Notes: generated by a model from the sequence alone, not told the origin. 64,000 nt of DNA from an uncultured delta proteobacterium (GCA_963706575.1 CAVPNL010000008.1:295987-359986), one strand, 5' to 3'; positions 58,775-64,000 are shown, counted from the stretch's first letter. Program-made: numbers and translations.

Positions 58775-58995
58775 AGGCTTGAAGTCTGTGTTTGGATACT
58801 CACGAACTCCCTTATGTGTTGCAAGGAATTCATATATTTCCAGCTTGTCAAAGGTTTTTAAGGTCATATACAAATTGTGATATTCGAGAAAGTAGAAATG
58901 ATATCACAGAGTGCTCGTTTTGGTGATATTCTCAAATCTGCAATTTGCGATATTAAAAATTTTAGACTTCACCCGATGCATTTTAATCGAATAAA

Positions 58996-59440: not shown

Positions 59441-59617
59441 GTATGATATCACAAGCGAAGATGTTTCTTTGATCAATAAATCAGTAGTTCTCTGATGGTT
59501 GATCTTCTTACAAGGACTTACAGCTGTTTTTCTTTAATTTCAAAAGAAAATATTCTATGATTCTTTAAACTTTATATTCCTGCGAATTATGAATTAAGTA
59601 GGTTGGGATTGCTCAAA

Positions 59618-59836
59618 ATGAAAGAAAAAAAAATTTTAAAAGAGGCAAGAATAAGTGACCCTTATGTTGACCGTCGCTCTGGTGAAGATAGACGGCAGGT
59701 TTATAACGCAGATTATTTTCAAAATGGGGGATTGGAAAGAAGAAGTGGTAAAGAGCGAAGGCGAGACTACGAAAGACGGAAGGATTGTACAAGAGTAAGC
59801 GACTGGTCAAGTATCTGTTCGGTTGATAAGGACTAA
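59618..59836 (+). CDS. Small protein with (D/E)RRSGxxRR repeats
   Basis: DRRSGEDRR, ERRSGKERR, ERR; ends RVSDWSSIC. Confidence 0.7.
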   Translation: MKEKKILKEARISDPYVDRRSGEDRRQVYNADYFQNGGLERRSGKERRRDYERRKDCTRVSDWSSICSVDKD

Positions 59837-60241: not shown

Positions 60242-60556
60242 ATGAATAAATGCCCAAGATGTAACCTACCGCAAAATGGACTTTATAAATGTCAATATTG
60301 TGGTTTTGACCTAAAAAAATATAACAAAAAGCCCACCACAATAATCCGAAAAAGGTTGAAAGATATCATTAGCGGATTTAAAAAAGGCCAGATAGTTTCA
60401 AGCAATAAAAAAAGCAATGTCCGCTCTATGAATTATGCTGGGAAGGCGAAAAAAAGTACAGATCATTTTGGAAGCCGCTCGGGAACTGATAGGCGACAAA
60501 AGAAAAATACAACCTATTTTCCCGAAAGAAGATCAGGCATGGACCGGAGAAAATGA
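60242..60556 (+). CDS. Small zinc-ribbon protein with RSGxDRR repeats
   Basis: CPRC..CQYCG N-terminus; RSGTDRR and ERRSGMDRR. Confidence 0.6.
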   Translation: MNKCPRCNLPQNGLYKCQYCGFDLKKYNKKPTTIIRKRLKDIISGFKKGQIVSSNKKSNVRSMNYAGKAKKSTDHFGSRSGTDRRQKKNTTYFPERRSGMDRRK

Positions 60557-60782
60557 TTTGATCTTAGAAGCTCAATTGCAAGAAAAAGAGGGTTCTAGAG
60601 CAGAGTTAGTCTAAATCCTCGAGAATCATACACCATAAAGCACAGGGACACATTCAGAAAACAATCTTAAAATAAATGCCAATTATTTAGGAAGTGCAAT
60701 TAAAATCTTTGATTACTTGTATGTTTCCTCGAACTTTCCTAAAAATCTAAGCAACGTGTAAGAGTCTGTTTGATAATCAACC

Positions 60783-60916
60783 GTGGTGTAGCAGACCGAT
60801 AGGTATCAGGTCTTTTAAGACCGAGTTGGAGCGCGGGTCGCTACACTACCTCCCATCTAACCCGAACGGTTGCAGGGGCATTGTAGCCCGCATGTTGCAA
60901 GACCGGGTACTGGAGG
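60783..60916 (+). ncRNA. Predicted IS110 bridge RNA (target-binding and donor-binding loops)
   Basis: Two stem/internal-loop/hairpin modules; loop AGTTGGAG complements right flank CTCCAACT; loop ACGGTTGC equals the element's right end. Confidence 0.8.
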
Positions 60917-60921
60917 ATGTC

Positions 60922-61488
60922 ATGGAAACAAAGCTATTTGTTGGAGTTGATGTCAGCAAAGACAGTTTAGACGTTGCTATTGGCCCGCAAAAAGACATCA
61001 TCACAAACGCAATAAAAAGGACATCGAGGATCATATCCGATGGCTTAAAAAACGCCTTGATAAAATCGAAACCGATATTGGTAAAATGATCCAAAGCAGC
61101 CCGATTTGGCGCTGTAAGGACGATATTTTGCAAAGCGTACCGGGCATTGGGCCCGTTACATCGGCCAGCTTAATCTGCGATCTTCCGGAGTTAGGTGTTT
61201 TGAGTCCGAAAAAGATTGCCATGTTGGCCGGTCTTGCGCCGTTAAATTGCGATAGCGGAAAATACAAGGGACGCCGCAGAATATGGGGAGGCCGTGCTTG
61301 TGTTCGCTCTGGTTTGTACATGGCAACGATGGCAGCGATCCGATGTAATCCGGCCATTAAGGGGTTCTATCAACGGCTGATTGCTGCCGGTAAATGTCAT
61401 AAGGTTGCGGCCACCGCCTGCATGCGGAAATTGTTGATAATCGTCAAATGCGATGCTTCGCGACCAAACGCTCTGGCAGCAAAATTAA
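60922..61488 (+). pseudogene. IS110 transposase pseudogene (most of the DEDD domain deleted, frameshifts)
   Basis: After ~28 codons it jumps to coiled-coil DIEDHIRWLKKRLDKIE in another frame; extra A near 61447 before NAMLRDQTLWQQN*. Confidence 0.85.
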
Positions 61489-61686
61489 TACTTGACTCCA
61501 AACACGGTTGCTCCAACTATATCAAAGGTTTTTGGGGACATAAAAATGTTGTGATATTCTAGGATATCTGTAATTTTGGCAAAATACAGATTATCTCACC
61601 TGTAACATTGTTTCTACTGTTTTTAGAATAGGGAATTATATTTACCATAGGCTATAAGTCTATTTCTATTTATGTAAGGAGTAGTC

Positions 61687-62520
61687 ATGAAGTTGTCAGT
61701 CATTACAGGGGCTTCAAGTGGAATCGGCGCTGCAACAGCGCGTCGAATGGCGGCCGATGGGTACAAGGTAGTACTTGTAGCACGCGGACGATCCAAAATT
61801 GACGAAGTTGCAGCGGAGATAGGCAAAAACGCTGTGGCCGAACCCTGTGATGCCAGCGACGGAGACGCTGTGCTATCGCTTGCCGAGCGTGTGCGCGACG
61901 AATTCGGAGTACCGGACGTAATAGTCAACTCCGCAGGGGCCGGTCAGTGGAAGCTGATAGAGGAGACCACGCCGGCTGAGGGGGTGACGATGATGGAGGC
62001 ACCATATTTTGCTGCCTTCAACATCACCCATGGTTTCATGCGTGACATGCTTGAACGAAATCGTGGCGTTATCATCCATGTCAGTTCACCTGTGTCGATC
62101 TTCACGTGGCCATCTTGCACTGGATACGCGGCGGCACGTTGGGCTCTGACGAGGGTTGCATGAGTCGTTGTGCGACGACCTTTATGATACAGGGGTGCGA
62201 AGCTGTCATGTAGTGTTCGGCAAGGCGTCAGAAGCTCTTACTTTGACAACAACCCAGGCGTAGAGGACAAATTGCCAGGCATCGCCAAAACGGTGCGAAC
62301 CATATCACCCGAGGAGTGTGCCAACGTTATCGCGAACGCAGCAATAAGACCGCGACGTCAGGTGGTGTATCCGATCATGCTACGGATTTACGTTTGGAGC
62401 TACGCTTTGTTCCCGTGGTTAACACGATGGCTGTTACGGACCACTGGGGCCAAGCGTCAAATTCAAACGCCATCGTCTTACGACCTTAGGAGCTGTAAAA
62501 CAAGGCCATACAATGGATGA
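61687..62520 (+). pseudogene. SDR family oxidoreductase with two frameshifts (~62149, ~62228)
   Basis: ITGASSGIG, VNSAG, YAAAR; continues RGLHESLCDDLYDTGV and SYFDNNPG in shifted frames. Confidence 0.8.
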
Positions 62521-62712
62521 TTGACGGTCTTAATAGGCTGTACTAACTCCAACTTATCAAAAGCTTTTAAGGTTATTAAGAGGTTCTGATTTTTTGGCAT
62601 ATCACAAATTTCCCGGGTTAGTGATATTCTCAATCAGTAATTCTCTTCTAATATCTAATACTCAGGAATTATTTCCACTCATTTAATAGTTTAGAGCAAA
62701 GGAAAACAGGTC

Positions 62713-63651: not shown

Positions 63652-64000
63652 CATCTCCATGCAGCACTTTTGAAAGTTGGGCATAAGTGGTGTATGGTCT
63701 CAAACAAGTGTATACGCCAAATTCCAAAACAATAATGGCTTTCGTTCTAAGTGATGCCTACCGTTATGATTTCAAATATCCAACAAAGTACAAATATCAG
63801 GCTGCTAAATTTTTTGTGATATTCGATTTTAATCACAACTCAGAAGGATGAATCCGGGCTTATGGATTTGCCCTTTTTATTGCCCTAAAGTCGCATTTTT
63901 CGGGCTTATGGTTTGACACCAGATCAAAAAATACGATACGGTTCAGATATCCATTTGGTACCTGAAAAATTGCGATATTTGGGTTTCTCTCAATATATCT

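What the first reader, a model, noticed from the sequence alone, without database searches (positions are those of the whole stretch)
60766..61518. Non-autonomous IS110 with an apparently intact bridge RNA whose guides read out its own donor end and insertion site
Seen: the left end folds into two modules. Module 1 has outer stem 60783-60797/60836-60849 and inner hairpin GGTCT-TTTA-AGACC (60809-60822), with loop strands TAGGTATC (60800-60807) and AGTTGGAG (60824-60831). AGTTGGAG is the exact reverse complement of CTCCAACT at 61511-61518 (CT core plus right flank). TAGGTATC matches the left flank TAAGAGTC (60759-60766) at 5/8, or 6/8 with a G-T wobble. Module 2 has stem ACCCG/CGGGT and inner GGGC/GCCC; its loop ACGGTTGC (60866-60873) is identical to the element's right end (61504-61511). 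TTGACT at 61492 would act as -35 on the circular junction. Established: IS110/IS621 recombinases use a bridge RNA with target- and donor-binding loops around a CT core. Inference: the recombinase has lost most of its RuvC-like domain, but the guide RNA could still work in trans. It defines a natural specificity of about TAGGTAT-CT-CCAACT.
Basis: partly seen in the sequence, partly recalled or inferred. Interest (0 to 1): 0.8.

Follow-up and report, generated by a model that had tools for sequence, protein, structure and literature searches.

The report
Decayed IS110 copy with bridge RNA

Summary
The two-module fold is real: it is the target-binding and donor-binding loop pair of an IS110-group bridge RNA, present upstream of the recombinase gene in 81 of 81 related sources, with strong covariation. 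The right-hand guide (AGTTGGAG) and the donor guide (ACGGTTGC) do read the right flank and the right end.

The left boundary is wrong. The element starts at the CT at 60716-60717, not 60766-60767. Four lines show this: relatives, environmental contigs, an empty homologous site in a sister genome, and a TTGACT-N17-TATGTT junction promoter.

At the true left flank (TTGATTA) the left guide fits only 3 of 7. An environmental copy with the same guide sits at GGTAT-CT, so the inferred specificity is about right.

The recombinase gene has a 367-nt deletion and a 1-nt insertion. The assembly (91.8% complete) holds no other IS110 recombinase domain, and no other copy of this deletion form was found, so trans activity has no support.

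The target is a dispersed intergenic repeat. This scan has already reported IS110 bridge RNAs on other DNA. Verdict: new member of a known kind, low interest.

The parts
60709..60715 (+). Left target half (LT) TTGATTA, the 5' edge of the genomic target repeat
   Evidence: Flank homology to the empty site in G016 ends here. Other copies of the repeat carry GATAC/GATTA/GATAT directly before CT-CCAAC.
60716..60717 (+). Left copy of the CT core: the true left boundary of the element
   Evidence: Similarity to G004, G007 and L045 starts here. Environmental contigs start at 60716. Four of 7 left-end hits in the genus start exactly here.
60720..60725 (+). -10 hexamer TATGTT of the junction promoter. 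It is completed only when the right end is joined to the left end.
   Evidence: 17-nt spacing to TTGACT across the junction, counted. The left end starts CT-TG-TAT... across the family.
60726..60781 (+). 5' leader of the bridge RNA.
   Evidence: Conserved in G004, G007 and L045.
60782..60909 (+). Bridge RNA core (target-binding and donor-binding loops); full match to covariance model R1 at 125.2 bits
60800..60807 (+). Left target guide TAGGTAT plus the core C
   Evidence: In register with the clade guides that match their left flanks. L171 has the same guide and the flank GGTAT|CT.
60809..60822 (+). Inner hairpin of the target-binding loop
   Evidence: Pairs covary.
60824..60831 (+). Right target guide AGTTGGAG, complementary to CT+CCAACT at 61511-61518
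   Evidence: It covaries with the flank in G004 (TGTTGGAG with CTCCAACA) and across the family.
60866..60873 (+). Left donor guide ACGGTTG plus the core C, identical to the right end 61504-61511
   Evidence: holds across the family.
60891..60901 (+). Right donor guide: CAT (60891-3) and CAAG (60898-60901), able to pair discontiguously with CTTG.ATG at 60716-60723
   Evidence: Inference. Both sides are invariant in the family, so no covariation is available. IS621 shows the same discontiguous pairing (PMC11208160 passages).
60922..61002 (+). First 27 codons of the recombinase gene (start of the RuvC-like DEDD domain), followed by the deletion junction at 61002|61003
   Evidence: Alignment to G004 shows 367 nt missing. 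Loose ends at 61003 in 4 runs carry the undeleted sequence.
61003..61475 (+). 3' part of the recombinase gene (Transposase_20 domain), with one extra base near 61443-61446 that shifts the last codons
   Evidence: PF02371 at E 7.5e-19. tblastn gives 92.8% identity to G004 residues 147-298. The other copies lack one base here.
61492..61497 (+). -35 hexamer TTGACT of the junction promoter
   Evidence: A TTGACA-like hexamer lies exactly 13 nt before the core in 34 of 55 distinct right ends of the family.
61504..61512 (+). Left donor half ACGGTTG plus the right copy of the CT core: the right boundary
61513..61600 (+). Right target half CCAACT and the rest of the about 100-nt dispersed repeat
   Evidence: nhmmer finds 25 copies at E<=0.05 that start at the repeat's first bases, out of 65 hits at E<=10.

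Best explanation
The element at 60716-61512 is a dead copy of an IS110-group insertion sequence whose full-length form is about 1.16 kb and encodes a 310-aa recombinase.

How the live element works (established for IS621, inferred here). It excises as a circle. Joining the right end to the left end creates a TTGACT-N17-TATGTT promoter that drives the left-end bridge RNA. The RNA's first internal loop pairs with the two halves of the target, about (T/G)nGATA(C/T)-CT-CCAAC(A/T). The second loop pairs with the joined ends, ACGGTTG-CT-TGTATG. The recombinase then exchanges strands at the CT core.

This copy landed at the 5' edge of a dispersed intergenic repeat. Its right half-site was matched perfectly and its left half-site poorly. 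It then lost 367 nt of the RuvC-like domain and gained a frameshifting base.

The RNA gene is structurally intact, but in the integrated state it has no recognisable promoter, and this assembly holds no recombinase to serve it. It is most likely an inert relic.
For: Family.
- The G004 full-length protein matches IS621 (8wt6, E 1e-37) and ISCro4 (9t56, E 3.8e-40) over its whole length.
- It carries PF01548 and PF02371. The window ORF keeps only PF02371.

RNA.
- Model R1 hits all 81 sources searched, lying just upstream of the recombinase gene (one cut by a contig end; one source has a second hit).
- Covariation supports the fold.

Guides.
- Right guide against right flank: 4.76 of 6 against 1.67 of 6 in mismatched pairings.
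- In the window's own clade the left guide matches the left flank at 5.26 of 7 (23 distinct pairs), against 4.14 of 7 mismatched.
- Compensatory examples: G004 TGTTGGAG with CTCCAACA; L153 and L166, CTGCAATT with CTGCAATA.

Boundaries.
- Relatives.
- Contigs of 4 runs start at 60716 and stop at 61517.
- Empty homologous site GCGATAC|CT|CCAACA in G016, with both flanks aligned around it.
- Left-end hits in the genus start at 60716.

Decay.
- 367-nt deletion and one extra base.
- 0 PF01548 matches in G000.
- tblastn with the 310-aa protein finds only this copy and a 150-nt remnant on C4.
- No promoter-like site at the integrated left end.

Mechanism. Passages of PMC11208160 read.
Against: - No direct evidence of transcription or of its absence for this copy. 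RNA-library contigs do cover 60716-60930, but they come from related copies, and such libraries can hold DNA.
- The assembly is 91.8% complete with 6.4% contamination. Repeats are often left unassembled, so a full-length copy could be missing.
- The poor left-flank fit (3 of 7) is unexplained. It could mean a tolerant insertion, later exchange of the guide, or drift.
- The right donor guide pairing rests on invariant bases only.
Confidence: 0.9

Rival explanations
1. The element spans 60766-61518, its left guide reads TAAGAGT-CT, and it is a non-autonomous element whose guide RNA still works in trans.
For: A bridge RNA supplied in trans works for IS621 in E. coli (PMC11208160 passage). A MITE-like RNA-only derivative has been proposed for ISPpu9 (PMC12288879 passages). 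The RNA fold here is intact at 125 bits.
Against: - The stretch 60716-60766 is conserved in relatives that sit in unrelated flanks.
- The empty site in G016 joins the sequence left of 60716 directly to CT-CCAAC.
- The 4 of 7 match is shared by another CT.
- There is no recombinase domain in the assembly.
- The 27-nt deletion junction has 0 exact matches in the metagenome contigs.
- All 17 environmental copies with a located right end are full length: donor loop to right end is 979-1014 nt, against 648 in the window.
- A preprint reports that elements with truncated recombinases show no activity (10.64898/2026.08.14.744561 passage).
Confidence: 0.04
2. The copy is a natural half-match insertion. 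The recombinase-RNA complex inserted into a site that fits only the right half of the target loop.
For: - The right half fits 8 of 8; the left half fits 3 of 7.
- The guide is not a private mutant, since L171 carries the same letters at a fitting site.
- The flank form GATTA is common among uninterrupted repeat copies of this genome, so it is probably original.
- Half-match insertion is reported for IS621 (10.64898/2026.08.31.748434, abstract read).
Against: A single case. Two of 23 clade pairs also score 3 of 7, so it may be ordinary tolerance. Guide exchange between copies after insertion cannot be excluded.
Confidence: 0.3
3. The structured left end is not a guide but an ordinary 5' UTR or antisense regulatory sRNA, of the sX15/asX7 type described in Xanthomonas.
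For: The only Rfam match is sX15 (RF02234), at 35.1 bits on the minus strand, below the gathering score of 55. sX15 and its complement asX7 were seen by northern blot and dRNA-seq (PMC3300014 passages).
Against: The loops covary with the flanking DNA and with the element ends, which a UTR or antisense role does not predict. The sX15 consensus contains the reverse complement of the donor-loop motif, so it more likely models the opposite strand of a bridge RNA. The two roles are not exclusive.
Confidence: 0.03

Closest known systems
IS621 (E. coli) recombinase and bridge RNA, IS110 group (Durrant et al. 2024, PMC11208160, passages read; PDB 8wt6)
   Same: - Two-domain recombinase (full-length relative).
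- Left-end RNA with a target loop followed by a donor loop.
- The 5' strand of each loop has the sequence of the top strand; the 3' strand is complementary to it.
- CT core.
- Promoter rebuilt on the circle junction.
- Discontiguous right donor guide.
   Different: - This copy lacks the RuvC-like domain.
- In this clade the left target guide sits one base further 3' than in the rest of the family, so it covers only the C of the core in many copies. The in-family register gives 0.85 of 7 matches, the shifted register 5.26 of 7.
- The target is a different repeat.
ISPpu9 / ISPpu10 of Pseudomonas putida (PMC12288879 passages read; 10.64898/2026.03.19.712850 abstract start seen in a listing only)
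   Same: IS110-family elements that home to a multi-copy intergenic repeat. Truncated derivatives and RNA-only pieces exist beside full copies.
   Different: Those targets are REP palindromes or one conserved intergenic sequence. Here the target is the 5' edge of an about 100-nt repeat that carries GTGATAY arms. No sign that the derivative moves.
IS1111-attC group (recalled from memory, not read here)
   Same: IS110-family elements that seek the recombination sites separating gene cassettes.
   Different: The repeat here shows no attC-like hairpin (fold z -2.5 to +0.8), and no integron integrase scores above the cut-off. The bridge RNA is in the left end, as in the IS110 group.
Rfam RF02234 sX15 / asX7 of Xanthomonas pXCV183 (PMC3300014 passages read)
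   Same: Nearest Rfam model: 35-41 bits on two copies.
   Different: It matches the strand opposite to the bridge RNA and stays below the gathering score.

Membership tests
IS110 family, IS110 group (bridge-RNA recombinase elements) | Recombinase with an N-terminal DEDD RuvC-like domain (PF01548) and a C-terminal Tnp domain (PF02371) | tested here: inconclusive
   The full-length relative G004 (92% identical DNA) has both domains and matches IS621 and ISCro4. The window copy keeps PF02371 only; 367 nt of PF01548 are deleted. It is a member by descent, not a working one.
IS110 family, IS110 group (bridge-RNA recombinase elements) | Non-coding RNA in the left end with two stem-loops that carry large internal loops | tested here: met
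   Model hits in 81 of 81 sources; 95.1% of cells paired and 20 of 25 pairs with double changes; the window scores 125.2 bits.
IS110 family, IS110 group (bridge-RNA recombinase elements) | The first loop covaries with the target flanks | tested here: met
   Right guide 4.76 of 6 against 1.67 of 6. Clade left guide 5.26 of 7 against 4.14 of 7. The window's own right flank fits 8 of 8; its own left flank fits 3 of 7.
IS110 family, IS110 group (bridge-RNA recombinase elements) | The second loop matches the element's own ends | tested here: met
   The left donor guide equals the right end at 8 of 8 in the window, and with at most 1 mismatch in 66 family loci. The right donor guide rests on invariant bases only (inference).
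IS110 family, IS110 group (bridge-RNA recombinase elements) | A CT core present at both junctions, and once in the empty site | tested here: met
   CT at 60716-7 and at 61511-2; a single CT in the empty site of G016; the AG that faces it in the right guide is invariant.
IS110 family, IS110 group (bridge-RNA recombinase elements) | A sigma-70 promoter rebuilt across the joined right and left ends | tested here: met
   TTGACT-N17-TATGTT by counting. A TTGACA-like hexamer lies 13 nt before the core in 34 of 55 distinct right ends. Function not tested.
IS110 family, IS110 group (bridge-RNA recombinase elements) | Circle formation and RNA-guided insertion | not testable with these tools
   No right-end-to-left-end joints in the contigs of 4 runs. 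Contigs cannot exclude them.
Non-autonomous (MITE-like) derivative mobilised in trans | The same internally deleted form present at two or more independent loci | tested here: not met
   0 exact matches of the deletion junction in the metagenome contigs. 0 of 17 environmental copies are deleted. The own genome holds one such copy plus an unrelated right-end remnant.
Integron attC site (as the identity of the target repeat) | Imperfect hairpin with paired R''/R' and L''/L' boxes, and an integron integrase in the genome | tested here: not met
   DNA folds of 14 copies on both strands give z -2.5 to +0.8, with no end-to-end hairpin. TIGR02249 gives no match over the cut-off.

The most novel reading that the evidence does not exclude
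The repeat that this IS110 clade homes to may be a recombination-site family that punctuates a non-integron gene-cassette system, rather than a passive REP-like sequence. It has four GTGATAY arms, including an 8-6/7-8 inverted pair. It lies in one orientation within each cluster, 0.2-3.7 kb apart, each copy in front of a different accessory gene whose homologues sit in other contexts in sister genomes. On this reading the IS would be a parasite of cassette junctions, as IS1111-attC elements are of integrons.
Probability: 0.07. Interest if true: 0.6.

Novelty: new member of a known kind. Interest (0 to 1): 0.22.

Why it matters
The value is mainly in annotation. The work gives correct ends, guides and target motif for a widespread IS110 clade of sediment Desulfobacterales-type bacteria, with 472 or more relatives of the recombinase in the species-level genome collection. 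It also shows that raw-sequence reading can find a bridge RNA yet misplace the end when the 5' leader is taken for flank.

Three points of modest wider interest:
- a natural insertion whose left half-site fits poorly, which bears on half-match off-targeting;
- a one-base shift of the left target guide in this clade;
- the only near match in Rfam 15 is sX15, which models the strand opposite to a bridge RNA.

If the relic RNA were active in trans it would be an example of guide-only parasitism, but nothing here points that way.

Tried and rejected
- Single-sequence folding of 60767-60925 is not distinguishable from shuffles (z -1.22). Comparative analysis was needed.
- A loose regex scan for the repeat returned mostly noise and was replaced by nhmmer.
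- First anchors for cutting the RNA region picked the inner hairpin in some loci. Coordinates were reset from the donor-loop end.
- In one search the left end was mislocated in several loci (distances of 11-14 nt, and 6 rows with none), because the last CTTGTAT-like motif was taken. The left-guide statistic therefore understates the fit. The clade analysis is cleaner.
- The attC/integron idea for the repeat was rejected.
- Tyrosine-recombinase pairs near two repeat clusters turned out to be one duplicated two-gene unit at a contig end. No link to the repeat was shown.
- Six of 37 metagenome hits to the 19-nt donor-loop string lie in unrelated DNA without a bridge RNA. They were dropped as chance matches.
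- Read laying: no joints, and no evidence of the window's own deletion form in the four runs laid. Contigs cannot show transcript ends or levels, so nothing is concluded about expression.
- An earlier thought that G60803 is a private mutation (others read A) was dropped when L171 showed the same guide.
- Our-findings look-ups by place and by sequence gave nothing for this locus.

Full report
**What is in the sequence.** The ORF list shows a 55-codon piece beginning METKLFVGVDVSKD (60922-61089). A second ORF lies in another frame (61086-61562). That second ORF carries the Transposase_20 domain of IS110-family recombinases (PF02371, E 7.5e-19). The first piece has no Pfam hit.

**Relatives give the full form and move the left end.**
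- The window's genome (G000, 25 contigs, 91.8% complete) holds no full copy. It has only this one and a roughly 150-nt right-end remnant on C4, which abuts the same kind of right flank.
- Among 60 related genomes searched, 4 have matches (5 of 61 counting G000).
- G004 holds a full element encoding a 310-aa protein. That protein has PF01548 and PF02371. It matches the solved IS621 and ISCro4 transposases over its whole length (E 1e-37 and 3.8e-40).
- In G004, G007 and L045, similarity to the window does not stop at 60766. It runs on to a CT at 60716-60717, and left of that the flanks are unrelated.
- Aligned from that CT, the window element (797 nt counting both cores) is 92.2% identical to G004 (734 of 796). 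It differs by one 367-nt deletion after 61002 and one extra base near 61443-61446. The deletion removes about residues 29-150, which is most of the RuvC-like domain. The extra base shifts the last codons.

**Independent support for the corrected ends.**
- Contigs of four public runs (one DNA, three from RNA libraries) begin at 60716 and stop at 61517. One carries 252 foreign letters before 60716 that end in ...GATGATAT. At 61003 all four runs show loose ends with the undeleted sequence, and most lack one base near 61445.
- In sister genome G016 a homologue of the left-flank gene is followed by GCGATAC-CT-CCAACA with no element. The window's left flank aligns up to 60713 and its right flank from 61550, with matching spacing. 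This is the empty site.
- In a genus-wide search, 4 of the 7 listed left-end hits in other genomes start exactly at 60716, and none reaches further left than 60702.
- With this end the junction promoter has ideal geometry. TTGACT (61492-7) is followed by 13 nt to the core, then CT, then TG, then TATGTT (60720-5), giving a 17-nt spacer (counted).
- Across the family a TTGACA-like hexamer lies exactly 13 nt before the core in 34 of 55 distinct right ends. Left ends begin CT-TG-TAT....
Its 4 of 7 match to the guide is equalled by another CT.

**The RNA is a bridge RNA.**
- The search for related loci returned 79 loci (472 confirmed relatives).
Thirteen of 31 predicted pairs carry compensatory changes.
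- A covariance model built on this hits all 81 sources searched, lying just upstream of the recombinase gene. The window scores 125.2 bits, fifth of 82 hits.
- On these hits 95.1% of cells pair, against 77.8% in shuffles and 37-53% when partners are slid. Twenty of 25 pairs have double changes. That alignment was fitted to the model and so leans towards it; one search is free of this bias.
- The order and strand rule are those published for IS621. [quoted passage not shown] The target loop comes first (PMC11208160, passages read).

**Guides against DNA.**
- I located right ends with the donor guide alone and then asked whether the right target guide fits the flank. In 49 distinct pairs from 66 loci, the six bases after the core match at a mean of 4.76. 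The mean is 1.67 in 2326 mismatched pairings.
- G004 shows a clean compensatory pair: TGTTGGAG with CTCCAACA, against the window's AGTTGGAG with CTCCAACT.
- For the window's own clade I fetched 37 metagenome loci with a 19-nt donor-loop string. Thirty-one hold a full bridge RNA. Six are chance hits in unrelated DNA and were dropped.
- In this clade the left guide fits the 7 nt before the core at 5.26 of 7 (23 distinct pairs), against 4.14 of 7 mismatched. This holds only if the guide is read one base further 3' than in the rest of the family; the unshifted register gives 0.85 of 7.
- Variants travel together: TGTGTAT guides with GTGTAT flanks, GATAA with GATAA, and CTGCAAT right guides with CTGCAAT flanks.

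**This copy's own site.** The right half fits 8 of 8 and the donor guide fits 8 of 8. The left guide TAGGTAT fits the true left flank TTGATTA at only 3 of 7, the bottom of the clade's range. The guide is not a private mutant: L171 has the same letters and sits at GGTAT-CT ... CT-CCAACA. The flank form GATTA occurs in several uninterrupted repeat copies of this genome. The simplest reading is an insertion into a half-fitting site. Such half-match insertion has been reported for IS621 (abstract of 10.64898/2026.08.31.748434). One case does not prove it.

**Can it act in trans?** Trans supply of a bridge RNA works for IS621. Here, however:
- PF01548 has 0 matches in G000.
- tblastn with the 310-aa protein finds only the two remnants.
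- The integrated left end has no sigma-70-like site in front of it. Two sites were found in 1.1 kb against 1.8 expected, and neither is there.
- The 27-nt deletion junction has no exact match in 241 million metagenome records.
- All 17 environmental copies with a located right end are full length.
- A preprint notes that elements with truncated recombinases showed no activity (passage).

I therefore read it as a relic. The assembly is incomplete, so a missing full copy cannot be excluded.

**The target.**
- CT-CCAAC is the start of a repeat of about 100 nt. There are 25 copies at E<=0.05 that begin at the repeat's first bases, among 65 nhmmer hits at E<=10.
- Upstream of the CT most copies read (AAAACC)nnTGATAC-like.
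- The repeat holds an inverted pair, TGTGATAT-N6/7-ATATCACA, and a further GGTGATAT arm.
- Copies lie in one orientation within each cluster, in front of unrelated accessory genes. The genes have homologues in other contexts in sister genomes.
- It is not attC-like: no hairpin and no integron integrase above the cut-off. Its nature stays open.

**Known or new.** This is the IS110-group bridge-RNA system described in 2024, in a decayed copy. Truncated copies and RNA-only derivatives of IS110 elements are in print (passages). Searches for 'bridge RNA' with 'non-autonomous' gave 4 papers, none on a case like this. This scan has already reported 7 or more IS110 bridge RNAs on other DNA. Rfam 15 has no model that reaches its threshold here. 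The only hit is sX15, on the opposite strand.

Noticed in passing
window 58839-58935, 61511-61600, 62547-62637; G000 C4 289-308 kb, C4 351-361 kb, C1 174-184 kb and elsewhere: A dispersed repeat family of about 100 nt, with consensus ..TGATAC-CT-CCAACwTATCAAAGGTTTTTGA..TTGTGATATT-N-ATATCACA..GGTGATATTCTCAAT. Copies lie in the same orientation within each cluster, each in front of a different accessory gene. It is the natural target of this IS110 clade. Its function is unknown; it could be a promoter/operator module or a recombination site.
   Followed up: partly
L132 (G015:C347), about 27.75 kb in the contig: A repeat copy reads ...CATAAA-ACGGTTG-CT-CCAACA with no element present. The 7 nt before the core equal the last 7 nt of the IS right end, in place of the usual TGATAC. 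It is possibly the footprint of a lost copy.
   Followed up: no
G000 C4:360634-360815 (L002): A second, older remnant: only the last 150 nt or so of the same IS (87% identical, with a small internal gap), joined at ACGGTTG-like GCGGTTG-CT-CCAACT to another copy of the repeat.
   Followed up: partly
window 60774-60921 minus strand; L044 61-208 minus strand: Rfam RF02234 (sX15, Xanthomonadaceae sRNA) matches the strand opposite to the bridge RNA at 35-41 bits. Its consensus holds the reverse complement of the donor-loop motif. The 2011 paper reports sX15 and a complementary asX7 on pXCV183, with 10 homologues in Stenotrophomonas. asX7 may be an early sighting of a bridge RNA. The plasmid record itself was not checked.
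   Followed up: partly
clade copies L139-L174; window 60798-60808: In this clade the left target guide is displaced by one base towards the inner hairpin compared with other family members. Many copies therefore pair with the C of the core only. Copies ending ..TATCT pair with both core bases and leave no spacer.
   Followed up: partly
L153, L166: Two environmental copies have a retargeted right guide (reverse complement CTGCAATT) and sit at CT-GCAATA flanks. This is a natural change of target within the clade.
   Followed up: no
window 63776-63990: Another repeat of about 200 nt, with dozens of copies across all 22 genomes of the genus (75-97% identity). It overlaps weaker members of the target-repeat family.
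   Followed up: no
window 60242-60556 and 59603-59836: Small ORFs with a zinc-ribbon-like start (CPRC..CQYC) and repeated RRSG-[ED]-[DE]RR motifs. They form a multi-copy family in the genus at 65-78% DNA identity.
   Followed up: no
window 61687-62520: The short-chain dehydrogenase gene downstream of the repeat appears split into two ORFs (158 aa and 82 aa), so it may be frameshifted. G018 has an 85% identical uninterrupted match.
   Followed up: no
G000 C1:71-2039 and C12:208366-210334: An identical pair of tyrosine-recombinase genes (360 and 312 aa) occurs twice, once at a contig end. It is probably a multi-copy mobile unit. A group II intron reverse transcriptase lies at C4:301306-302598 inside a repeat cluster.
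   Followed up: no
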